Positions 24,525 to 32,774 of a stretch of DNA of 32,774 bases are shown here, piece by piece. The translations under genes were made by a program, and so were the position numbers. The notes beneath the pieces were generated by a model that was not told where the DNA came from, did not search any database, and saw only the letters and a program-made list of their open reading frames with translations. The number at the start of each line of letters is the position of its first letter. The first letter of the stretch is position 1. Source of the stretch: Candidatus Doudnabacteria bacterium (GTDB taxonomy: Bacteria; Patescibacteriota; Doudnabacteria; UBA920); the NCBI GenBank assembly GCA_903913365.1, contig CAIWKW010000060.1, forward strand, positions 1 to 32,774, written 5' to 3'.

Positions 24525-24625
24525 AATTGATTGAACAAGAATTAAAAGATTTAAATGATTGACATGATTGGACTGCAGTGAATTCCTGCCATTCTTTTAA
24601 ATCATGTCAATCTTGTCAATATTTT

Positions 24626-24904
24626 TTACCAGTTTTTATCCGGAGCTTCCAAATTATAAGAGGCTTCTATAAAGTCATATTCGGCTTTAAGTTTATCCCG
24701 ATAATCTTCCAAGTCTTCTTTGCGGTCGCCTTCGGCTTCAAACCATTCGTCGTAGCTGCCTTTTAGCTCCTCATCTATATCCTGAAGGCGCGCGTAGGCT
24801 TCGGCTTCGTTTTGAGGCCCCTGCTCCAGCCATTCTTCATAAGTCATTCCCAAGCTTTTTTTATATTTATCTTCGTACAGAGCCTTTAAGTCATCTTGAT
24901 CCAT
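24626..24904 (-). CDS. Hypothetical acidic 92-aa protein
   Basis: Clean ORF, Glu/Asp/Tyr-rich helical sequence. No recognisable family. Confidence 0.5.
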   Translation of the reverse strand: MDQDDLKALYEDKYKKSLGMTYEEWLEQGPQNEAEAYARLQDIDEELKGSYDEWFEAEGDRKEDLEDYRDKLKAEYDFIEASYNLEAPDKNW

Positions 24905-24948: not shown

Positions 24949-25170
24949 TAAAAAAGAAAAACCCCTTATGTATTTACCAAGCCGTCAGGCTATATGGCAA
25001 ATAAGGGGTCTTTCGGAAAAGTCAAAAGAAGCTTTTGGTAACTATAAGTAATTCTTATAGCCAATCGCCTTGAAAATAGAGGCGATAATTATTCGCCCGA
25101 AGGCGAATTGTTCAAAAAACTTTAAATTGTTTTTTATTTTGGTTTCTTCTAATGAAGAACTAACTTTTCT
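24949..25170 (-). ncRNA. Candidate ~220-nt structured RNA (stand-alone sRNA, or leader of the 92-aa gene)
   Basis: Minus-strand promoter TGGACA-17-TATACT (+ coordinates 25177-25205). Hairpins at 25023-25037, 25042-25060 and 25064-25086. Hairpin at 25091-25108 carries a UUCG tetraloop on the - strand. Terminator hairpin at 24962-25008 followed by a U-run (A-run 24949-24961 on +). No ORF. Confidence 0.45.
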
Positions 25171-25214
25171 ATACTAAGTATAGCAGAAATTTTGCCTTCT
25201 GTCCAGGCCTAAAA

Positions 25215-25257
25215 ATATTAAAAATACCCGGCTGAAACTGGAGTGTTTCAGCCGGGG
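25215..25257 (-). terminator. Rho-independent terminator of the 208-aa gene
   Basis: cccggctgaaac (25227-25238) pairs with gtttcagccggg (25245-25256). On the - strand it is followed by tatttttaatattttt. Confidence 0.75.
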
Positions 25258-25287
25258 CTGCGGAATTTTTTGTGCATGGCAGTTTTG

Positions 25288-25914
25288 TTACGCCATACTA
25301 ACGACGTCAAAATGAAAACGTTCCGGCGGTAGTGCCGGATTCGGAGGAGGGCTCAAGCTGGCCCAAGCCTCGAAGGCCGTGGCGGCGATTGTGCTTTGCA
25401 TGTACATCAAAAATTGGTCCGAGAAACAACGCAGCGGCGGAGGCTGGCGGAACGCCAATCTCATGCCTACCGCGTTTTCCGGTTCAATTCCCTGCATGCC
25501 CACGGATTTGTCGCGCAGCAGCCTAACAAAATTTATCCGGCCGGCACGCGGCCAAATGTCAGGTCGCAGCAGCGGACGAAGCTCCAGACGCGTTTCAAAA
25601 GTGGTTTCGCACTGGCGAATCCACTCAAGAATGGAATCGCCCAAACGCCAGTGGTTAACAAGTCCCTGGTATTGCTCCACCAACTGCAGAGCCAACTCCA
25701 GTTTGCGCTGCTCGAGCATTGCGGAGATTTCCGGAATCTCAATTATCGGCGGGGGCAGCATGTCCTCGGTTTCTACTACTTGGCTGGCCATTTGCATGGC
25801 CTTTTCGAGTCGGTTATGCATTTGAGATGCGTGGATTAACAGCGGCGGGAGCTCATGTGTTTTGTCTCCCGGCACTTCAATAAACTCTCTTCCGCCAACA
25901 GTTACTATTGCCAT
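25288..25914 (-). CDS. Hypothetical 208-aa protein, GC-rich orphan
   Basis: AGGAGG SD 5 nt upstream of the ATG, plus own promoter and terminator. Pro/Leu/Arg-rich. No motif recognised. Overlapping antisense ORFs are a GC artefact. Confidence 0.6.
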   Translation of the reverse strand: MAIVTVGGREFIEVPGDKTHELPPLLIHASQMHNRLEKAMQMASQVVETEDMLPPPIIEIPEISAMLEQRKLELALQLVEQYQGLVNHWRLGDSILEWIRQCETTFETRLELRPLLRPDIWPRAGRINFVRLLRDKSVGMQGIEPENAVGMRLAFRQPPPLRCFSDQFLMYMQSTIAATAFEAWASLSPPPNPALPPERFHFDVVSMA

Positions 25915-25953
25915 AGTTACCTCCTGAAAATTCGGACGAAATACTTATTGCGA

Positions 25954-25982
25954 TTATAGAGTATTAAGGATTTTTTGCCAAA
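25954..25982 (-). promoter_or_regulatory. Near-consensus sigma70 promoter for the 208-aa gene
   Basis: The reverse complement reads TTGGCA, 17 nt, TATAAT. Confidence 0.65.
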
Positions 25983-25992
25983 TTTTTGAGCA

Positions 25993-26021
25993 TTGATAAT
26001 TTATTCATTATCTTTTATAAT
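25993..26021 (+). promoter_or_regulatory. Sigma70 promoter for the tRNA
   Basis: TTGATA (25993-25998), 17 nt, TATAAT (26016-26021). The tRNA 5' end lies 14 nt downstream. Confidence 0.65.
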
Positions 26022-26034
26022 ATGTAAAGCTTTT

Positions 26035-26111
26035 GGGCGTGTAGCTCAGTTGGTTAGAGCGCTTAGCTTATACCTAAGAAGTCCTAGGTTCGAGTCCTAG
26101 CACGCCCACCA
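26035..26111 (+). tRNA. tRNA-Ile, anticodon UAU, CCA encoded
   Basis: Hand-folded cloverleaf. Acceptor GGGCGTG/CACGCCC; D arm GCTC-AGTTGGTTA-GAGC; anticodon arm CTTAG-CTTATAC-CTAAG; variable loop AAGTC; T arm CTAGG-TTCGAGT-CCTAG; discriminator A then CCA. The D-arm/body is Ile-like. Confidence 0.85.
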
Positions 26112-27566
26112 TTGCTCCAAATTCATCTTTTTTGGAGCTTCAGCCATCGGCTGAAATGTTTGTTTGAACTGATAATCTTGCACTTCCTGATTTTCGACCT
26201 TAAGGTTCCAAAGTACGGAATTTAGTATTTCCTTTTTCTTGAGTGGATTACCGTTTAAGTAGTCAAAAGATGCGTAAGAGGCCTGTAATAGGGCCTTTTT
26301 AGTTTGTTCCAAAGTAGAAAGTGCCTCATCTTGAGTTCGGTTTTCCAGTTTTAAAATCCGCGCCTCGATGGATTTTATGTCTGCCTCCAGAGATAAAATT
26401 TTAGGCTTGAGAGAATCTTTAAGGCTGGGGTCAGTAGAAATTACGTCAGCGAGATTGGACAGCCTGCCCTGTTCGGTTTTGAGTAATTTAGCCAGTTCGT
26501 CTTTTTGAGTTTTGGAATTTGAGCCTTGCTGTATGGTTTGCTCTTTGGCCGACTCATAAGCCAGCTCAATATCATCGGGTTCAAGTTTGATTTTGTTTAA
26601 AACTTTAGCGACTAATTTATCGGCCGCCGTTTCGTTGAGGTATTTTTTATGCTGTTCGCATTTTCTCTTGCCGTTGGTGCAGTAATAATAAACGTGGCCT
26701 TTTTTCTCGGCGGCGGTTAAGGCACAGCCGCAGGAGTGGCAGTTCATAAATCCTCTTAACGGGTAAAAGTGGGTTTTTCTTCGTGGTCTGGTTTTGCCGG
26801 ACATCACAAACTGGGCTTGATCAAAAACGGCTTTGGTAATTAAGGGCTGGTGTATGCCCTGATACTGCTGGCCGTTTCGGGTAATGGTGCCGTAGTAAAA
26901 GGTTGTGGTTAGCAGGTGTTGCATCATAGCCTTGCTGTGCTGTTTGCCGGTCTTGCTTTTAAAGCCTTTGTTAAACATAATCTCGGCCACATCCCGCAGG
27001 GAATAACCGCCGGTGGAATAGAGCTCAAAAAGCTGTTGGATGAAAACTGATTTAATTGGGTCAACATCAATTTTTCTGCTAATGGGATTATTGGTATAGC
27101 CTATGGGAGCCTTGCCGGGAAGTTCGCCTTTTTCTAGTTTGGTTTTGTTGCCACGCTTAACATTTTTTGACAGGTCAATGCTGTATTGGGCGGCCATACT
27201 AAACTCTACGCCTGAAATCAAAGTATTGTCTTCGGGGTTGTAGGTGCGTTCGGGAGTAATGATTTTAGAAATGACATTGGTTTGCAGGAGCCACTTAATC
27301 GTTCCCTCGTCTTTGGGGTTACGGGCAAGCCGGTCAAGCTTCCAAACCAACAAGACGGAGCCGGGGTGTTTTTCAATCAGCTTAACCAGCTTTTCAAATT
27401 CAGGACGGCCGGGGTAACGGGCGGATTTACTCTCTTCAAAGATTTTATCAATTTTTAGATTATGCTCACGGGCTAAACCGGCCAGCTCGTTTCTCTGGCT
27501 CTCAATGGACAGCACTTGATGAGCGGAGTCTTCGGAAGACCTGCGGCAGTAAATTATGTTTTTCAT
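26097..27566 (-). CDS. Large serine recombinase (integrase)
   Basis: 489 aa. Resolvase-type N-terminus IIYCRRSSEDS...SIESQ...LLVWKLDRLARN, recombinase domain, Cys-rich zinc-ribbon (CHSCGC...YYYCTNGKRKC) and coiled-coil C-terminus. The last 5 codons overlap the tRNA 3' end. Confidence 0.9.
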   Translation of the reverse strand: MKNIIYCRRSSEDSAHQVLSIESQRNELAGLAREHNLKIDKIFEESKSARYPGRPEFEKLVKLIEKHPGSVLLVWKLDRLARNPKDEGTIKWLLQTNVISKIITPERTYNPEDNTLISGVEFSMAAQYSIDLSKNVKRGNKTKLEKGELPGKAPIGYTNNPISRKIDVDPIKSVFIQQLFELYSTGGYSLRDVAEIMFNKGFKSKTGKQHSKAMMQHLLTTTFYYGTITRNGQQYQGIHQPLITKAVFDQAQFVMSGKTRPRRKTHFYPLRGFMNCHSCGCALTAAEKKGHVYYYCTNGKRKCEQHKKYLNETAADKLVAKVLNKIKLEPDDIELAYESAKEQTIQQGSNSKTQKDELAKLLKTEQGRLSNLADVISTDPSLKDSLKPKILSLEADIKSIEARILKLENRTQDEALSTLEQTKKALLQASYASFDYLNGNPLKKKEILNSVLWNLKVENQEVQDYQFKQTFQPMAEAPKKMNLEQWWAC

Positions 27567-27795
27567 ATCGTTATTGATTTTTAAGAATTAGGGGGTTTTT
27601 ATTATACCCCCAAGAAACAAAACCGCCAAATATTTTTTTTACTTCGGCCTTTAAATTTTAATTTTCGTTTTTGGGGTGTGCAAGGGTAAAAATAATTTAC
27701 CTTCGTCTTAAAATATTTTTAATTCCCTTGACACCCAAAACTGCGAAAATTCTGTTTTCCCCATAATCAGTAAAAAATTAAAGGCGGTGAGAACA

Positions 27796-27963
27796 ATGGA
27801 ACTTAATCAAATGGAAATGAACACCATTAGATTCTGCTTGCAGGAACAGATAAATATCCTTATGGAAAGACGGGACAGGGTGGAAGATAAGGCACAGATT
27901 AACAAGAGAATCGGTTGGTTAATTATCGTTAAGCAGAAAATACCAAAACCAGTAAAACAATAA
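27796..27963 (+). CDS. Hypothetical 55-aa helical protein, divergent from the recombinase (possible regulator/directionality factor)
   Basis: My translation is MELNQMEMNTIRFCLQEQINILMERRDRVEDKAQINKRIGWLIIVKQKIPKPVKQ. Below the ORF-track cutoff. Weak SD (GGTGAG). Confidence 0.35.
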   Translation: MELNQMEMNTIRFCLQEQINILMERRDRVEDKAQINKRIGWLIIVKQKIPKPVKQ

Positions 27964-27993
27964 AACCAACACCCAAACAAAAACCAAATTTTT

Positions 27994-28305
27994 TTATGGT
28001 CGCTTGTCGGTATCTCTTAAATCTTTTAAACATTCCCGCTCGTCATCAGTTAAGCCAAAAAGTTGATTAAACCTCCAGCCGTCAGGAGCCTTGCCTTTGG
28101 CCTGGGACAACGGCGCTCTGGGCAGGTCAATATTGAAACGCAAATCCGGCCTGCAAGTAGGACAAACCTTAAACGGACAGCTAATCCAAGGCTGGCGGAG
28201 GTGGCGAACATATTTGCAGAATTTACAGCTACAAAGAGCGCGGCCTAAACTGCCGTCATTGTGGCTTTCATATTTCCCGATAGCTTGTGGGGTTTGATTG
28301 GCCAT
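27994..28305 (-). CDS. Cys-rich 103-aa protein (putative zinc-binding), unknown function
   Basis: CxCxxC ... Cx5CxxC pattern (CSCKFCKYVRHLRQPWISCPFKVCPTC). Immediately downstream of Rep on the same strand. Confidence 0.5.
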   Translation of the reverse strand: MANQTPQAIGKYESHNDGSLGRALCSCKFCKYVRHLRQPWISCPFKVCPTCRPDLRFNIDLPRAPLSQAKGKAPDGWRFNQLFGLTDDERECLKDLRDTDKRP

Positions 28306-28320
28306 CAGACTTTAGTTAAA

Positions 28321-29274
28321 TTAAAATGGCAAATTATAATCAGTTAGCATATCCGCAGGAGGCTGGTTGTCAGCTTGCAGTTGCGGATAATTAAAACTGA
28401 ATCTTAACGGCTGGGGGTGCTGTTTTTCTTGGATTATATTTTCCTGTATCCAGTCCACGATTTCGGGAAAGCCCTTTAAGCTGTAATCCGTTTTATCCAT
28501 AACTTGGTCAACAAAATCAAAGCCGTTCCAGACTGGGTATTTAATGTTTTTCACTTTGTGCAGGATAAGGGAAGCAGGGAGGGTGGCTTCAATATCCGAA
28601 ACCGAAGCGTCGTGCCGGAGGATTTGAGCCTCAACTAAACCAGTTGAGCGGAAGTAGTGTTTTTTACCGGCGGCGTGGTAATCACGAAAGTTCTTGCCTA
28701 AATATTTGGCCATATATTGGCCGTAGTTGCGGTCGTAAATTTTGCGGATGTCCACAATGCCAAAGCCCCAAAGTTTTTGCAGTTTTTTCTGCTCTATCCA
28801 CGGCTGGTTAAACAGCACAATGTGGAAATGAATCTTTTTGCTCTTGGGTTGAAGTTCCATAACGGCCACGTATTTAAGTTGTCCGGTCTGTTTGTCAAAA
28901 TAGTTCCAGTTAACCTTTTTAATGTAGGAGGTAAAATCCTTAACAGCTCTAGGAGCGTCTTCGGCTTGGACATTGTCTTTGTAGGTATTGGTGAAAAACT
29001 TGGCGGTTAAAGAGCCGGAGCGGTGAACACCCTCAATGATATTGGCGTTAATCAAATCAATTACCGTGTCTTGTGCCCTGTGGTAATTGGATATTTCAAT
29101 GGCTTCCGGACTTTTGGCCGGAGCGGGCAGGGGTTTGGGGCCGCCGGTTTTAGCATCAAAGACAAAACCGTCATCGTCAAACTTTGGAGGTCTTGGGCCA
29201 AAATGAACCTCGCGGGAAAAGTGTTTTATGGTTACGTGGTAACCGGCGATTTTTAGGGTATGATTGGTGAACAT
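28321..29274 (-). CDS. HUH-superfamily rolling-circle replication initiator (two-tyrosine, phiX A / phage CRI-like)
   Basis: 317 aa. Motif I FFTNTY, motif II HFHIVLF (HUH), motif III YMAKYLGK (YxxKY; compare phiX gpA YVAKYVNK), in the canonical order and spacing. Confidence 0.75.
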   Translation of the reverse strand: MFTNHTLKIAGYHVTIKHFSREVHFGPRPPKFDDDGFVFDAKTGGPKPLPAPAKSPEAIEISNYHRAQDTVIDLINANIIEGVHRSGSLTAKFFTNTYKDNVQAEDAPRAVKDFTSYIKKVNWNYFDKQTGQLKYVAVMELQPKSKKIHFHIVLFNQPWIEQKKLQKLWGFGIVDIRKIYDRNYGQYMAKYLGKNFRDYHAAGKKHYFRSTGLVEAQILRHDASVSDIEATLPASLILHKVKNIKYPVWNGFDFVDQVMDKTDYSLKGFPEIVDWIQENIIQEKQHPQPLRFSFNYPQLQADNQPPADMLTDYNLPF

Positions 29275-29473
29275 AGAAAATGAGTTGGGATTTTTCTTAA
29301 ACCCTTGGATATTATTGATTATGATATTCCATAGTATTAAGTGATACAGGACGCACGAGTGAAGCAGGCAGGTGGCAGGGCTTATTGGTTTGGCAAGAAG
29401 CCATTAAAAATTACTATGAGCCGCCGATCCCGCCGGCCTGAAAGGCCGCGGGACGCGGCGTGGCGGAAAAGTT

Positions 29474-29638
29474 TTAACTTGAGTCGCTGTGGTCGTTTGG
29501 GATGTCAGCAATGGCGCGAAACAGGTTGCCCAAATCACGCAAAAAAACCTCGGCTTGTTCCGAGGTTAATTCAATGTGATATTTCTGGGCGTAGTGCTTT
29601 TTGCACCGCTCAATTAGCTGTAGGCTAAACGCAGACAT
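29474..29638 (-). CDS. Hypothetical 54-aa protein upstream of Rep
   Basis: The track ORF (TTG 29671) was trimmed to the ATG at 29638: MSAFSLQLIERCKKHYAQKYHIELTSEQAEVFLRDLGNLFRAIADIPNDHSDSS. Function unknown. Confidence 0.35.
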   Translation of the reverse strand: MSAFSLQLIERCKKHYAQKYHIELTSEQAEVFLRDLGNLFRAIADIPNDHSDSS

Positions 29639-29879
29639 TAAAAAACCCTTTTGTAACAATGGATTACGCAAGGATTCGTTTGATAGTTTAGTAATTTAGC
29701 CTAAAGAATTTTATAATTTTGCCGATAGAGTAATTAGGTCTTTTTGCCCGTGGGGTTTACCCAGGGGTCTTTGTGCCTCGTAGCTCCGGCTTTGTAAGTT
29801 AATTTAGTGGCGGCTTGTTTGATAAGAATTTTATTATAAAATTCTTGCGTTGGATTGTTAATGAACTGATTGTAAAATA

Positions 29880-29909
29880 ATTATATACCGGGGATTATGG
29901 CGGTGTCAA
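29880..29909 (-). promoter_or_regulatory. Near-consensus sigma70 promoter for the 54-aa/Rep/Cys-rich operon
   Basis: The reverse complement reads TTGACA, 18 nt, TATAAT. Confidence 0.6.
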
Positions 29910-30007
29910 TAAAGTTTTTAAATATCCGATCTTTATATAAAAACAAATAAATCTGCTGTTTTTGTTTAAATAAAGCACAAAAGGTTATAAATAAGCCATA
30001 AATATCC

Positions 30008-30036
30008 TTGACAAGAATATAGTAGTATGCTATAAT
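30008..30036 (+). promoter_or_regulatory. Perfect consensus sigma70 promoter
   Basis: TTGACA (30008-30013), exactly 17 nt, TATAAT (30031-30036). Confidence 0.75.
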
Positions 30037-30042
30037 AATTTA

Positions 30043-30344
30043 AATTAAGGTTACCGACAGCGAACCCCCAAGTGCAACACCAATGATGAAAATCATTAAG
30101 CATTCAAGGTAAAGCAAGTATAGGAATCATCCCGTATTTACTTAGCCTTTAATGCAAAGGTGATGGAGTGGCGGTGGAATCAAAGCTATTACATCCGTTG
30201 CACTTCAAAGTTCGCTATCGGTTATTTGAAAATTTAGATTTGTTTTCCTGACAGTTTGTATCGCCTAATAAGCGGACGAGCGAGGATATCTTGTATACGC
30301 ATTTGCATATACATGAGGTATCTTTGTTCGTCCGCTTTTTGTTT
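30043..30344 (+). ncRNA. Unclassified ~300-nt structured RNA (stand-alone ncRNA or cis-regulatory leader)
   Basis: Long-range helix: 30054-30078 pairs with 30197-30221 (segments of 4+1+6+7 bp around a symmetric 6x6 internal loop). AATGAT-GAAA-ATCATT hairpin with a GNRA loop at 30082-30097. Extended hairpin at about 30100-30155. G-rich segment at 30159-30177. About 30-bp terminator hairpin at 30271-30336, then TTTTGTTT. No credible ORF. Confidence 0.5.
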
Positions 30345-30367
30345 ATAGGCGGCAAAAGGGAGGACTT

Positions 30368-30802
30368 ATGACGAACGATTTCGAGTCTATCGCAAAAGTT
30401 GCGATAGAAAAAGTGGTGGCTCAGCATCCCCACCGTAACGAAAGTTTAAGGCTGGAAGCGACATTCGTAATGGCGAAGGTCTTACAGCCAGAGAAGCGCA
30501 GAATGGCTTTCATCCTGTCGGAAAACCTTGATAGGTTGCCCGCTAGCGGAAAAGAAAGGTTCTCTCAAATATCGGTTACCGGTTGGGGAGGACATATGCC
30601 AAATCTGCCAAGTGGAACACCCGAGTACCGTTACTCGGTGTGGCGGATGTTTGAGAATGACGCCGAGCCGGTCGAAATCCACCGCTTGTCCGGGACAGAT
30701 GAAGGCGAGTACTATATGTCCCAGCTTGAAGTCAGGGACGACGGCGCCATCATCGCGTACGGCCTGGACGATAAAAAGTGGGAGTTTCCGTACGCCAAGT
30801 AA
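30368..30802 (+). CDS. Hypothetical 144-aa protein (orphan)
   Basis: GGGAGG SD 4 nt upstream of the ATG. GC-rich. No motif recognised. Confidence 0.6.
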   Translation: MTNDFESIAKVAIEKVVAQHPHRNESLRLEATFVMAKVLQPEKRRMAFILSENLDRLPASGKERFSQISVTGWGGHMPNLPSGTPEYRYSVWRMFENDAEPVEIHRLSGTDEGEYYMSQLEVRDDGAIIAYGLDDKKWEFPYAK

Positions 30803-30826
30803 TTGATAACACCCGTAGGAGGATAT

Positions 30827-31432
30827 ATGGAAAAAGTGAGATTGCTCGTAGTCGAAGATCGTCCGGAGTATCTACGCTGGGCGAAATTGGTATTTGATGC
30901 TCTGCCCAAACATAAGCCGGAGGAACAACTTTCCTTCTATAAAACGAAGGTCGAGCTGGAGAGCGTGACTTATGCCTCAACTTACGAAGAGGCTCTGGCG
31001 TCCTTGGAGACCGGCAACATTACCCACGTCATTACGGATATGTTTTTCCCTTCGGAAACCGATTGGCGGCAACACTTTACCAACGTGATGCACGACTCAT
31101 CCCGGTATGCCTTGTGCGATCACAGAGAAGAGGCTGAGAAGTTTTCCGAACTTCCTGAAAACCCCTCCGGTATCGCTGTCACCCTGGAGTGTTGGAAACG
31201 CGGAATCCCCTCAATTGTTATCTCACAGGGGAACCGGCATGTCGGCGTTTCAGGAACCCTGAGGTTTGCTCTCGAGAACATGGATTTTTTCTACGAGGGT
31301 AACATACAGGAGAGGATTTGGGTTCTGAATTTCGAAAGCAACCTGAAGCGCATCGAAATCGACAAAACGGATATCAGTTGGTGGCTAATGGCTTGGGAAC
31401 ATGTCGTCACAGGCGAACTTCACTTCAGGTAG
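30827..31432 (+). CDS. Atypical CheY-like receiver (REC)-like stand-alone protein
   Basis: AGGAGG SD upstream of the ATG at 30827 (track start is TTG 30803). RLLVVEDRPEY (beta1 acidic pair) and HVITDMFFP (phospho-acceptor-like Asp), but with a ~40-aa insertion and no output domain. Confidence 0.45.
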   Translation: MEKVRLLVVEDRPEYLRWAKLVFDALPKHKPEEQLSFYKTKVELESVTYASTYEEALASLETGNITHVITDMFFPSETDWRQHFTNVMHDSSRYALCDHREEAEKFSELPENPSGIAVTLECWKRGIPSIVISQGNRHVGVSGTLRFALENMDFFYEGNIQERIWVLNFESNLKRIEIDKTDISWWLMAWEHVVTGELHFR

Positions 31433-31450
31433 TCGCCTCGTCGCACTCAG

Positions 31451-31489
31451 GGGCGTCGCTAATGCAATCAAGCGGCGCCTCCTTTTTTA
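31451..31489 (+). terminator. Rho-independent terminator ending the GC-rich cassette
   Basis: ggcgtcgct (31452-31460) pairs with agcggcgcc (31471-31479) with 1 mismatch, followed by tccTTTTTT. Confidence 0.7.
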
Positions 31490-31505
31490 TGCTAAAATAA
31501 ATTAT

Positions 31506-32774
31506 ATGAAGCAAAGACTGAAAATTGGATATATTCCTATTTTAGACCACCTGATTTTGGGAGTAGCAGATTTCAATGACGGTGCCCATTTTGAAAACTT
31601 TGAGCTTGAAGCGGTTCGTTTTGAAAATTTGCCCACACTTGCAAACGCCTTGCAGAACAAAGAAATTGATGGCGCGTTTTGTCTGTATCCAATCATGGAA
31701 AATTTATATCGTCAGGGGTTAGATATCAAAGTGGTTTTGCTTGGACATCGCGAGGGACAAGTGCTTGTGGTAAATAACGAAATAAATTCGATTGAGAACT
31801 TACGCGGGAAAACAATTTTAATTCCTCATAAATTTTCAACCCATCATATTTTACTGCAACAAATTCTACAACAGAATGGATTAAATATTAAAAAGGACGT
31901 AACGATAAAAATCGGGTATAAAAAAATAACTGATGTCCTTGATTATTTGGAAAAAGGTGAAATCCAGGCTTTTATTATTGCTGAACCGCTTGGAACGGAA
32001 GCACGAAGAAAGAAAATTGGAAAAATTTTGGCATTATCACATAATATTAAGCTGCATCATATTGATTGCGTTTTGGTTTTAAACAGTGAGGTCTTAAATA
32101 AGAATCAGGAGGCCATAAAAGAGTTTATAGGTAGTTTGGTAAAGGCGGGTATGTTTATAAACGATTATCCCAGACAGGCCGCTGAGATTGGAGAAAAATT
32201 TTTGGGTTGGCCGAGCAAAGTTCTTTTAGAGGCATTGACCCATGACTTTGGACATATTTTATTTTGGGATTTACTACCAAGGGTGGAAGATTTTCAGGAG
32301 TTGGAAAACATTGCCGTTGACGAAATGGGTTTATGGGATTCAAAAATAGATTTGAAAAATTTTATTTTTCCGAAACTTGCCCAAGCCGCCTATCGTGAAT
32401 GGGTGATTGATACCAGAAAAGCAACAAAGGATAAAGGGTTAAACCGTTCATTGCCAGGGAGTTTTCAAGAAGCAAATAATAAATTTCAATCCCATTTTGA
32501 TTCTCCAATCTTTTTGAGCGGGATTAAAATTATATATCCGGGGGATAAATATCCGTCAAAAATATCCAAGATAGAAAAACCCGACGAGCCATACAGTGTT
32601 TTGCTAAATAACTTTATAGGGAAAAGTGAGACTGTCATCAATTCTGTACTACCTGAATTTAAAGCCTACGCGTTTGTAGATTCAAAAGATGGAATAGTAC
32701 CAGAAAAAATAATACTAAAGCTTAACAAAGAAGAAGCGGATAAATGTCTTAAGGCCTTAACTCTTGGAGAAGAA
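31506..32774 (+). CDS. NMT1/NrtA/SsuA-like substrate-binding-fold protein without signal peptide, with C-terminal extension (runs off the window end)
   Basis: Absent from the track (no stop). I checked the frame codon by codon to 32774 (423 codons). N-terminus MKQRLKIGYIPILDHLILGV... and ...IIAEPLGTEA resemble NitT/TauT-type binding proteins. AT-rich, host-like. Confidence 0.5.
   Translation, partial: MKQRLKIGYIPILDHLILGVADFNDGAHFENFELEAVRFENLPTLANALQNKEIDGAFCLYPIMENLYRQGLDIKVVLLGHREGQVLVVNNEINSIENLRGKTILIPHKFSTHHILLQQILQQNGLNIKKDVTIKIGYKKITDVLDYLEKGEIQAFIIAEPLGTEARRKKIGKILALSHNIKLHHIDCVLVLNSEVLNKNQEAIKEFIGSLVKAGMFINDYPRQAAEIGEKFLGWPSKVLLEALTHDFGHILFWDLLPRVEDFQELENIAVDEMGLWDSKIDLKNFIFPKLAQAAYREWVIDTRKATKDKGLNRSLPGSFQEANNKFQSHFDSPIFLSGIKIIYPGDKYPSKISKIEKPDEPYSVLLNNFIGKSETVINSVLPEFKAYAFVDSKDGIVPEKIILKLNKEEADKCLKALTLGEE

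What the first reader, a model, noticed from the sequence alone, without database searches (positions are those of the whole stretch)
26035..31500. Integrated rolling-circle replicon with a large serine recombinase whose stop codon lies inside tRNA-Ile
The recombinase gene (26097-27566, - strand) ends 15 nt inside the 3' end of the tRNA (26035-26111, + strand). Downstream lie a 55-aa divergent ORF, a Cys-rich protein, an HUH Rep, a 54-aa ORF, two divergent consensus promoters and a cargo cassette. AT-rich host-like sequence resumes at about 31500. A serine integrase combined with an RC Rep and no capsid or conjugation genes suggests an integrated plasmid-like or satellite-like element. Such elements are poorly documented in CPR-like genomes. 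Because the integrase C-terminus is encoded by tRNA sequence, one of two things must hold. Either the tRNA 3' end is supplied by the element, or the tRNA is itself element cargo. Under the second option the GC-rich block left of the tRNA (about 24950-26034) would belong to the same element.
Basis: partly seen in the sequence, partly recalled or inferred. Interest (0 to 1): 0.7.

Follow-up and report, generated by a model that had tools for sequence, protein, structure and literature searches.

The report
Integrated rolling-circle replicon at tRNA-Ile end
A small plasmid-like element (a rolling-circle replication gene plus a large serine integrase) sits at the very 3' end of a tRNA-Ile gene in a CPR-type bacterium, and its integrase belongs to a large, apparently undescribed clade that targets tRNA 3' ends.

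Summary
tRNA-Ile(UAU) lies at 26035-26111 (+), and a 489-aa large serine recombinase (LSR, 26097-27566, -) ends 15 nt inside it. An HUH Rep and three small ORFs follow.

The tRNA-proximal junction is a real site-specific recombination junction:
- A 4,254-bp circular relative (L088) carries Rep and an LSR with an intact attP and no tRNA.
- Three integrated relatives (L001, L004, L094) have that attP's distal half-site at their far ends.
- Their two junctions share 5-9 nt, which places the crossover at the discriminator and last acceptor bases. The element therefore supplies the CCA.
- In 8 of 8 loci checked, the LSR gene reads 13-97 nt into a convergent tRNA (Ile, Tyr, Leu, Gln, Val, Gly).
- 39% of 131 full-length cluster representatives end in a T-loop-encoded tail, against about 2% background.

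The tRNA is host DNA, not cargo.

- Homology to related elements ends near 29,650.
- A close relative of the host (L075) shares 29,912 onward but not the element.
- No distal half-site exists anywhere in the contig.

This copy is therefore probably truncated or rearranged near 29.9 kb. I class it as a new variant of a known kind.

The parts
26035..26111 (+). Host tRNA-Ile(UAU). Its 3'-terminal ~25 nt (T arm plus acceptor 3' strand, about 26087-26108) serve as the B' half of attB.
   Evidence: tRNA-Ile(UAU) genes with the same acceptor and T arm occur in large chromosomal CPR contigs.
26106..26114 (.). Inferred crossover and identity region, CCACCATTG. This is the reverse complement of CAATGGTGG, which L001 repeats at both of its junctions. 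The crossover itself is inferred within 26106-26108 (last two acceptor bases plus the discriminator). CCA 26109-26111 would then be element-derived.
   Evidence: Junction identities are L001 CAATGGTGG, L004 CTGGC and L094 TGGCTGG. Placement in the window is by analogy with L001 and was not measured here.
26112..26141 (.). P arm of attP, lying inside the 3' end of the LSR gene. It is identical over 30 nt to L001.
26097..27566 (-). Large serine recombinase (integrase), 489 aa. The last 4 codons and the stop are antisense tRNA sequence.
   Evidence: Pfam PF00239, PF07508 and PF13408. PHROG integrase at 2e-75. All family-invariant residues are present, including R8 and S10. The closest solved structure is the SPbeta integrase.
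27567..27786 (.). Conserved non-coding block between the LSR gene and the divergent small ORF. It contains a promoter-like site for the LSR (27629..27601, -) and a long imperfect hairpin (about 27660-27752) with the invariant motif TTTACCCTTG (27681-27690, -). It is a candidate replication origin and/or operator.
   Evidence: 88% nucleotide identity to L004, against 68% for the LSR gene. Aligned across five elements. ssDNA fold z = -6.3. Motif present in L001-L004 at the same place. Promoter scan.
27787..27963 (+). Small divergent ORF (58 or 55 aa), function unknown. It is conserved in L002 and L004. It is a candidate regulator or directionality factor; this is inference only.
   Evidence: No family hits.
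27994..28305 (-). Cys-rich 103-aa protein with the pattern CxCxxC...CxxxxCxxC, function unknown. It is conserved in L002 and L003.
   Evidence: No family hits.
28321..29274 (-). HUH rolling-circle replication initiator with two catalytic-type tyrosines. The motifs are HFH and YMAKYLGK.
   Evidence: PF23343 at 1.1e-18. PHROG replication initiation at 1e-25. H149, H151, Y187, Y191 and K194 are invariant in 8 Reps.
29474..29671 (-). Small ORF (65 or 54 aa) that precedes Rep in every related element. Function unknown.
   Evidence: Alignment of five elements. An internal terminator-like hairpin lies at 29567-29546.
29880..29909 (-). Perfect sigma-70 consensus promoter (TTGACA-18-TATAAT) pointing into the small-ORF/Rep operon.
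29905..29912 (.). Breakpoint. Sequence to the right is shared with relative L075 at 91-98% identity; sequence to the left is not. This is the best candidate for the present distal end of the element. No P' half-site is present here.

Best explanation
This is an integrated copy of a small rolling-circle replicon, an integrative mini-plasmid of CPR/Patescibacteria-type bacteria.

Free state. Relatives exist as 4-8 kb DNA circles that carry a small ORF, an HUH Rep and a large serine recombinase (LSR). The attP site spans the 3' end of the LSR gene.

Integration. The LSR recombines attP with the 3' end of a tRNA gene. The crossover falls at the discriminator and last acceptor bases. The tRNA therefore stays intact, with its CCA and trailer now supplied by the element. 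The last codons of the LSR gene are replaced by antisense tRNA sequence, here W-A-C-stop.

Shown:
- the domain content;
- the circular relative;
- matching attP halves at both ends of three integrated relatives;
- the family-wide fusion of the LSR gene to tRNA genes.

Inferred:
- The tRNA T-loop and T-stem act as the zinc-ribbon-domain motif of the attB half-site. It is the same motif as in attP, but 5 bp closer to the centre. This would explain why close relatives use different tRNAs.
- After excision the circle replicates through Rep, from an origin in the conserved 27.6-27.8 kb hairpin block.

This particular copy has an intact tRNA-side junction and an intact LSR gene. It has no recognisable distal half-site. 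It is most likely truncated or rearranged at about 29,905-29,912, and so probably cannot excise in the canonical way.
For: 1. Anatomy and domains.
2. L088 is a 4,375-nt contig with a 121-nt terminal direct repeat, so it is a 4,254-bp circle. It encodes a 60-aa ORF, Rep (PF23343) and an LSR 57% identical to the window's, and it has no tRNA.
3. The L088 P' arm (37 nt) finds one outstanding match in each integrated relative: L004 29/37, L001 27/37, L094 26-27/37. Background best matches are 20-23. Each match lies at the far end of the element. The attP rebuilt from the L004 junctions matches L088's attP.
4. In 8 of 8 loci the LSR ORF runs 13-97 nt into a convergent tRNA of varied isotype.
5. Tails among homologues: at least 52 of 120 close homologues and 51 of 131 full-length cluster representatives end in a T-loop-encoded tail (W/M + 4 aa + D/E-S/L-N). 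The background rate is 0.6-2%. A mutually exclusive 18% end in the attP-type tail (D/E)-V-R-T.
6. The P' arm reads GAC + 5 nt + T(G/A)GAAC. The tRNA B' arm reads GA(C/T) + TCGAAC in the same register. This is the 5-bp shift described for serine-integrase attP and attB sites (PMC3783163).
7. The Rep-LSR pairing recurs in L001-L004, L012, L088 and L091. It recurs with a Phage_CRI-type Rep in L089 and L090.
8. Right end: homology to other elements stops near 29,650, and the L075 breakpoint lies at 29,905-29,912.
Against: - No empty tRNA-Ile site and no circular form of this exact element were found.
- The window has no P' half-site and no direct repeat of the junction core downstream. The distal junction is therefore undefined and excision competence is doubtful.
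- L075 is not an empty site. Its left flank is an unrelated RHH-like gene, not tRNA-Ile. The 29.9 kb breakpoint could therefore mark a module boundary inside a larger mosaic element.
- The P arm does not show a clear inverted copy of the P' motif at the symmetric position. This weakens the zinc-ribbon-motif reading.
- The core is compositionally host-like.
- No recombination or replication activity has been tested.
Confidence: 0.8

Rival explanations
1. The element is complete and runs from the tRNA to about 31,500. The 144-aa and 209-aa GC-rich genes are its cargo, and the distal att site lies in the 31,433-31,505 spacer.
For: - The cassette 30368-31432 is the only real compositional outlier.
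- L001 has a comparable layout, with a leftward accessory operon, divergent promoters and then the Rep operon.
- L075 could carry a mosaic relative of the same element.
Against: - There is no P' half-site or core repeat near 31.4-31.5 kb.
- L075 keeps the same promoter region, leader, terminator and NMT1 flank at 91-98% identity. Next to these it has an unrelated left flank and a 35%-identical cassette gene.
- Nothing in 29,700-31,500 matches any related element.
Confidence: 0.15
2. The element is longer than 6.7 kb, and its distal end lies beyond the contig end at 32,774. NMT1 would then be cargo.
For: - No P' half-site exists within the contig.
- Relatives reach 8.0 kb.
- The window is the whole contig.
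Against: - NMT1 is compositionally host-like.
- It has chromosomal homologues across CPR genomes.
- L075 shows no P' half-site in the 545 nt after NMT1.
Confidence: 0.15
3. The tRNA-Ile is element cargo, and the GC-rich block at 24950-26034 belongs to the same element.
For: The block to the left is somewhat GC-rich (0.45), and its 208-aa ORF has no known family.
Against: - The circular relative lacks a tRNA.
- The tRNA type changes between close relatives, and conservation breaks exactly at the CCA.
- Integrated relatives have both att halves on the LSR side of the tRNA.
- The block is not a significant k-mer outlier.
Confidence: 0.02
4. The recombinase is a resolvase or invertase acting on a local segment. 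Alternatively, Rep is an IS91-like or Helitron-like rolling-circle transposase that did the insertion.
For: Weak hits to invertase and IS607 models over the N-terminal domain only. Rep is a two-tyrosine HUH protein, like the IS91 transposases.
Against: - The protein has the full LSR architecture and length.
- No inverted att-like pair flanks a local segment.
- Junctions in relatives rebuild an attP identical in layout to that of a free circle, which is conservative site-specific recombination.
- LSR-only elements without Rep use the same junction (L094).
Confidence: 0.03
5. It is a defective filamentous-phage (inovirus-like) prophage or a phage satellite, rather than a plasmid.
For: The Rep families involved (REP_ORF2-G2P, and Phage_CRI in L089/L090) are typical of ssDNA phages. 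Ralstonia phage phiRSM1 combines such a Rep with a serine recombinase at a tRNA 3' end (PMC3218068).
Against: There is no pI/Zot-type morphogenesis ATPase and no coat-like small membrane protein, in the window or in the complete circle L088. PHROGs finds only the integrase and Rep.
Confidence: 0.1

Closest known systems
Ralstonia filamentous phage phiRSM1 (serine recombinase, attB at the 3' end of tRNA-Ser), as cited in PMC3218068
   Same: A rolling-circle replicon whose serine recombinase integrates at the 3' end of a tRNA gene.
   Different: phiRSM uses a small resolvase-like recombinase and is a true inovirus with morphogenesis and coat genes. Here the recombinase is a large serine recombinase with recombinase and zinc-ribbon domains, no virion genes are present, and the host is CPR-type.
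[quoted passage not shown]
   Same: Integrative elements that pair a site-specific integrase with a rolling-circle replication initiator and sit in tRNA genes. A subgroup uses serine recombinases.
   Different: AICEs carry an FtsK-like Tra conjugation gene and mostly use tyrosine integrases with an Xis. They are 9-24 kb and actinobacterial. No tra gene is present here. That paper calls serine-recombinase integration into tRNA rare.
Listeria phage A118-type (LI) serine integrase att-site architecture (Rutherford et al. 2013, PMC3783163)
   Same: The attP and attB half-sites carry the same outer motif, 5 bp closer to the centre in attB. The P' arm versus tRNA B' arm comparison here shows exactly that offset.
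   Different: LI targets a protein-coding gene (comK). Here the shared motif coincides with the universally conserved tRNA T-loop. The pattern here is inferred from sequence only.
SPbeta integrase SprA/YokA (closest solved structures 9dxh, 9dxd)
   Same: Same domain order, and detectable sequence similarity (E = 4e-10 over residues 42-289).
   Different: It is a distant relative. SprA targets spsM, not a tRNA.
Elements whose attP lies inside a coding sequence, so that integration changes the protein's C-terminus (Myxococcus phage Mx8 int; integration-dependent immunity in mycobacteriophages). Recalled from my own knowledge and not checked here.
   Same: attP lies within the 3' end of a gene, so the free and integrated forms encode different C-termini.
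   Different: Those systems use tyrosine integrases. Whether the tail swap matters functionally here is unknown.

Membership tests
Large serine recombinase (serine integrase) | N-terminal resolvase catalytic domain with the serine nucleophile | tested here: met
   PF00239 at 3.9e-22 over residues 4-148. R8, S10 and the DRLxRN motif are invariant in 34 homologues.
Large serine recombinase (serine integrase) | Recombinase domain followed by a zinc-ribbon domain with a coiled-coil insertion | tested here: met
   PF07508 at 2.1e-13 and PF13408 at 8.9e-07. Cysteines C276, C279, C281 and C296 are invariant. The coiled-coil is only suggested, by a coiled-coil-type hit at residues 315-426.
Large serine recombinase (serine integrase) | Conservative attP x attB recombination giving hybrid attL and attR with a very short shared core | tested here: inconclusive
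   Met in relatives: L001, L004 and L094 junction pairs rebuild an attP like that of circle L088, with 5-9 nt shared cores. In the window only the tRNA-side junction is present, and no P' half-site was found.
Large serine recombinase (serine integrase) | The outer (zinc-ribbon) DNA motif lies 5 bp closer to the centre in attB than in attP | tested here: met
   The P' arm reads GAC + 5 nt + T(G/A)GAAC and the tRNA B' arm reads GA(C/T) + TCGAAC in the same register. The model is from PMC3783163. The match is a sequence pattern only, and the P arm is not clearly symmetric.
Large serine recombinase (serine integrase) | Catalytic activity and a recombination directionality factor | not testable with these tools
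The small ORFs at 27787-27963 and 27994-28305 are only candidates.
HUH rolling-circle replication initiators (two-tyrosine type) | HUH metal-binding motif and YxxKY catalytic motif | tested here: met
   HFH at residues 149-151 and YMAKYLGK at residues 187-194 are invariant in 8 Reps. PF23343 and PHROG replication-initiation families match.
HUH rolling-circle replication initiators (two-tyrosine type) | A double-strand origin with a nick site, and a free circular replicon | tested here: inconclusive
   A free circle is seen for relative L088. The candidate origin hairpin and the invariant TTTACCCTTG motif at 27.66-27.75 kb are unproven.
AICE (actinomycete integrative and conjugative element) | An FtsK/SpoIIIE-like Tra protein for conjugative transfer | tested here: not met
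   No such domain occurs in any ORF of the element.
Inovirus or plectrovirus prophage | A pI/Zot-type morphogenesis ATPase and small membrane coat proteins | tested here: not met
   PHROGs and Pfam give only the integrase and Rep. The complete circle L088 also lacks them.
Classical tRNA-targeting genomic island (tyrosine integrase) | A tyrosine integrase, and a direct repeat of the tRNA 3' segment at the far end | tested here: not met
   There is no Phage_integrase domain. No second copy of the tRNA 3' end exists in the window with up to 3 mismatches.

The most novel reading that the evidence does not exclude
A large clade of large serine recombinases uses the universally conserved 3'-terminal ~25 nt of tRNA genes as one attB half-site. 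The clade has hundreds of clusters, mostly in CPR/Patescibacteria but reaching other phyla. The tRNA segment is the acceptor 3' strand plus the T arm, with the T-loop serving as the zinc-ribbon-domain motif. Closely related integrases can therefore land at the 3' end of almost any tRNA, or even at a bare tRNA 3' fragment. Integration swaps the integrase's own C-terminal tail. Paired with a rolling-circle Rep, these integrases define a previously undescribed class of integrative mini-plasmids that may be a main vehicle of gene flow in CPR bacteria.
Probability: 0.5. Interest if true: 0.8.

Novelty: new variant of a known kind. Interest (0 to 1): 0.6.

Why it matters
- Mobile elements of CPR bacteria are poorly known. 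Serine-recombinase integration into tRNA genes is described in the literature I could search as rare, with only a few cases reported (PMC3218068).
- Here it appears to be the rule for a whole clade. There is a simple structural rationale for it, and a free circular form (L088) is available to test that rationale.
- An integrase whose target half-site is the conserved tRNA T arm could be useful for inserting DNA into organisms that lack engineered landing pads.
- For annotation, the result explains why hundreds of 'recombinase' genes in CPR genomes have odd, non-conserved C-termini that overlap tRNAs.
- It also gives a practical way to delimit such elements: search for the P' half-site.

Tried and rejected
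- Exact-protein look-ups of the window's LSR, Rep and the 208-aa ORF found no other contig.
- BLAST of the element against the phage and plasmid collections matched only the tRNA.
- A metagenome scan with the tRNA-Ile 3' half returned 12 tRNA-Ile(UAU) loci from other lineages. None was an empty site for this host and none had an LSR downstream.
- Viral-contig scans with the P-arm DNA pattern and with the L088 Rep found nothing. The Rep alignment was too divergent to seed a scan.
- A more distant NMT1 homologue (L092/L093) showed no conserved synteny with a tRNA.
- Several searches for the window's distal junction gave only background-level hits: an inverted repeat of the P arm, direct repeats of the junction core, gapped alignment to the P' arms of L001, L004 and L088, and short-word BLAST of 29,680-29,930 against all related loci.
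- I considered that the TTGAC at the 29.9 kb breakpoint was a P' remnant. It is better explained as the -35 box of a perfect promoter.
I did not run single-sequence models.
- The literature searches found no description of this clade.

Full report
**Observation.**
ARAGORN and Rfam both find one tRNA in the window, tRNA-Ile with anticodon TAT at 26035-26111 on the + strand. A 489-aa ORF on the - strand (26097-27566) carries Resolvase, Recombinase and Zn_ribbon_recom domains and matches the PHROG integrase family at 2e-75. It overlaps the tRNA by 15 nt. Its last codons, TGG TGG GCG TGC TAG, are the reverse complement of the tRNA's ...CTAGCACGCCCACCA end.

- a divergent ORF at 27787-27963 (58 or 55 aa, depending on the start codon);
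- a Cys-rich ORF at 27994-28305;
- a Rep at 28321-29274 (PF23343, 1.1e-18);
- a small ORF at 29474-29671 (65 or 54 aa);
- two perfect sigma-70 consensus promoters facing apart, at 29909..29880 (-) and 30008..30036 (+).

The rest of the window is an ordinary bacterial chromosome, with DnaA, DnaN, RecF, RuvB, PBP1, TyrRS, YebC and RsmI. Named relatives of the recombinase come from Doudnabacteria and other CPR lineages.

**The tRNA overlap is a property of a whole recombinase clade.**
Among the 120 best homologues, the conserved protein ends at a W (or M/L) codon. After that the sequence becomes unrelated between proteins. In at least 52 of them it reads four residues and then D/E-S/L-N-P/Q/L. 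That is the translation of GA(T/C)TCGAACC, the reverse complement of the tRNA T-loop and T-stem, in the register expected if the W codon (TGG) is the complement of CCA.

At the DNA level, every locus I could check shows the recombinase ORF running 13-97 nt into a convergent tRNA:

| Locus | tRNA | Recombinase identity to the window |
|---|---|---|
| L001 | Tyr | 81% |
| L002 | Leu | 62% |
| L005 | Gln | 41% |
| L013 | Gln | 34% |
| L006 | Val | 35% |
| L007 | Gln | 35% |
| L010 | Gly | 29% |

A search of 1.84 billion cluster representatives gave 1,627 proteins at E <= 1e-30. Of the 131 full-length proteins among the best 150, 51 (39%) have the T-loop-type tail. A separate 23 (18%) have a different conserved tail, (D/E)-V-R-T. 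The two never co-occur, and the background rate is 2-3%.

**A free circular relative, and att sites.**
L088 is a 4,375-nt JGI contig with a 121-nt terminal direct repeat, so it is a 4,254-bp circle. It encodes a 60-aa ORF homologous to the window's small ORF, a PF23343 Rep, a recombinase 57% identical to the window's, an HNH protein and one unknown. It has no tRNA. Its recombinase has the second kind of tail (...SDW LALFDQVGTY...). I therefore read the DNA across the end of its gene as an intact attP...agtgat TGG ctggccttgttt GAC caagt TGGAAC ttatat.

Using the 37 nt to the right of the TGG (the P' arm) as a probe gave one outstanding match in each of three integrated relatives. Background best matches were 20-23.

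| Locus | Match position | Score | Distance from the tRNA-side junction |
|---|---|---|---|
| L004 | 1706 | 29/37 | 6.15 kb |
| L001 | 3461 | 27/37 | 8.0 kb |
| L094 | 7529 | 26-27/37 | 3.9 kb |

Joining the two junctions of L004 rebuilds an attP with the same layout as L088's. Joining those of L001 rebuilds tRNA-Tyr followed by a hairpin terminator.

The two junctions of each element share a short identical core: CAATGGTGG in L001, CTGGC in L004 and TGGCTGG in L094. The overlap of these cores puts the crossover in the three bases after TGG, that is, the discriminator and the last acceptor-stem bases. The CCA (and probably the discriminator) of the integrated tRNA is therefore supplied by the element.

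In L004 and L094 the target is only a tRNA-like 3' fragment, not a complete tRNA. The 3'-terminal ~25 nt therefore appear to be enough.

**How the target may be recognised (inferred).**
In one register, the P' arms read GAC + 5 nt + T(G/A)GAAC (L088, L001, L004, L089, L091). The tRNA arms read GA(C/T) + TCGAAC. For the Listeria A118-type integrase, the zinc-ribbon-domain motif occupies base pairs 16-24 of an attP half-site and base pairs 11-19 of an attB half-site, a 5-bp shift (PMC3783163). The positions and the shift here fit that model, with the T-loop and T-stem as the zinc-ribbon motif of attB. That would explain how recombinases 60-80% identical to each other use Ile, Tyr and Leu tRNAs.

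One caveat applies. The P arm lies in coding sequence and does not show a clean inverted copy of the motif at the symmetric position. This step remains a hypothesis.

**Rep and the replicon.**
The Rep has motif I, an HUH motif (HFH) and YMAKYLGK. H149, H151, Y187, Y191 and K194 are invariant across eight Reps that are only 20-80% identical. Only four close Rep homologues exist among 5.8 billion proteins. The Rep-plus-recombinase pairing nevertheless recurs:
- in L001-L004, L012, L088 and L091, with PF23343-type Reps;
- in L089 and L090, with a Phage_CRI-type Rep.

L094 shows that the same integration module also occurs without a Rep.

The best-conserved DNA among five elements is the non-coding block between the recombinase gene and the divergent ORF (window about 27,600-27,790). 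It is 88% identical to L004, where the recombinase gene is 68% identical. It holds an invariant TTTACCCTTG motif and folds as single-stranded DNA into a long hairpin with z = -6.3. I propose it holds the recombinase promoter and possibly the replication origin. That is inference.

No capsid, morphogenesis or conjugation gene is present in the window or in the complete circle. A plasmid-like lifestyle is the simplest reading. A satellite lifestyle cannot be excluded.

**Where this copy ends.**
Homology to all related elements stops at about 29,645. L075 is a 2,954-nt contig whose NMT1-like gene is 94% identical at the protein level to the one at 31506 onward. It aligns to the window as follows:

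| Window | L075 | Identity |
|---|---|---|
| 29,912-30,053 | 180-321 | 91% |
| 30,221-30,355 | 318-452 | 98% |
| 31,469-32,774 | 945-2250 | 93% |

Left of 29,912 it has unrelated DNA (an RHH-like gene) and no tRNA. The breakpoint coincides with the -35 box of the perfect promoter that drives the small-ORF/Rep operon.

The P' probe that worked in three relatives finds nothing above background anywhere in the window; the best score is 21/37, at irrelevant places. Motif, gapped-alignment, palindrome and core-repeat searches also fail. The window is the whole contig.

My estimates for the distal end are:
- about 50%: this copy has lost its distal half-site and now ends near 29,905-29,912;
- about 15%: it extends beyond the contig;

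By tetranucleotide composition, the core 26,112-29,905 is not distinguishable from the host (16.5% of host windows are at least as distant). The 30,368-31,432 cassette exceeds every host window.

**Comparison with known systems.**
The literature I could search describes serine recombinases as integrating within genes, and tyrosine recombinases at tRNA ends (PMC5704250). It calls serine-recombinase integration into tRNA genes rare. The cases cited are Ralstonia phage phiRSM1 (a small serine recombinase, at the 3' end of tRNA-Ser) and a group of Mycobacterium AICEs in tRNA-Leu (PMC3218068).

AICEs are the closest functional analogue, since they combine an integrase with a rolling-circle Rep at a tRNA. 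They are defined by a Tra protein, which is absent here. phiRSM is a true inovirus. The large LSR discovery paper in the library does not mention tRNA in its main text. I found no description of this clade or of Rep-plus-LSR mini-replicons in CPR bacteria. The library is incomplete, so absence there is not proof of novelty.

**Verdict.**
It is wrong or unproven in extent: the tRNA and the left GC-rich block are host DNA, and the cassette up to 31.5 kb is probably not part of the element. The element itself is a new variant of a known kind. The more interesting result is the clade-wide targeting of tRNA 3' ends, for which a testable recognition model and a circular reference element are now available.

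Noticed in passing
window 30054-30220: This 167-nt insertion is absent from relative L075. It is bounded by 26-nt imperfect inverted repeats (CCGACAGCGAAC... / ...GTTCGCTATCGG) and flanked by TTA on both sides, where L075 has a single TTA. It looks like a MITE. No other copy was found in the window or in the fetched loci.
   Followed up: partly
window 30368-31432 (compare L075 478-918): This is a hypervariable GC-rich cassette (GC 0.50, and a tetranucleotide outlier against every host window). It sits between a conserved promoter and leader (98% identical to L075) and a conserved terminator and NMT1 gene (93%). The window has a 144-aa and a 209-aa ORF. L075 has one 146-aa ORF that is only 35% identical to the 144-aa one. 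No family hits were found in Pfam, PHROGs or NCBIfam.
   Followed up: partly
window 30221-30367: The 5' leader of the cassette folds into a very stable long RNA hairpin (-59 kcal/mol, z = -7.8) followed by a U-run. It resembles an attenuator or terminator upstream of the start codon. It is 98% conserved in L075. Rfam has no match at gathering threshold.
   Followed up: partly
window 25288-25914 (-): This 208-aa ORF immediately upstream of the tRNA's 5' end is GC-rich and followed by a clean terminator hairpin at about 25227-25262. It has no hit in Pfam, PHROGs or NCBIfam, and no exact copy exists in the contig collection. It is not part of the element as far as the evidence goes.
   Followed up: partly
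window 24525-24626; L003 5437-5536 and 6938-6990: A palindromic intergenic sequence lies between RsmI and the 92-aa ORF (41-nt arms, 73% complementary). It recurs at 74-88% identity at two intergenic places in the unrelated 198-kb contig of L003. It may be a REP-like or MITE-like repeat shared among CPR genomes.
   Followed up: no
window 29546-29567 (-): A terminator-like hairpin plus T-run lies inside the small ORF that precedes Rep. It could attenuate Rep transcription, as copy control, or it could be chance.
   Followed up: no
L085 around 2655 (reverse strand of the stored locus): Two tRNA-Ile-like 3' fragments lie in tandem about 20 nt apart (TTCTAGGTTCGAATCCTAGCGCGCCCA ... GTCCTAGGTTCGAGTCCTAGCACGCCCACCA). 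This looks like a footprint of repeated integration at a tRNA 3' end in another lineage.
   Followed up: no
L003 3323-4953: In this 198-kb contig, a Rep 80% identical to the window's is paired with a quite different serine recombinase. A separate 84-aa ORF, not the recombinase ORF, reads into tRNA-Lys. The Rep also appears split (518-760 and 753-1484). This may be a decaying or recombinant element.
   Followed up: no
L004 1706-7857: This AT-rich element is inserted in GC-rich DNA (MarR-like and ParB-like genes) at a degenerate tRNA-like 3' fragment. It carries a beta-eliminating lyase/threonine-aldolase-like gene as apparent cargo.
   Followed up: partly
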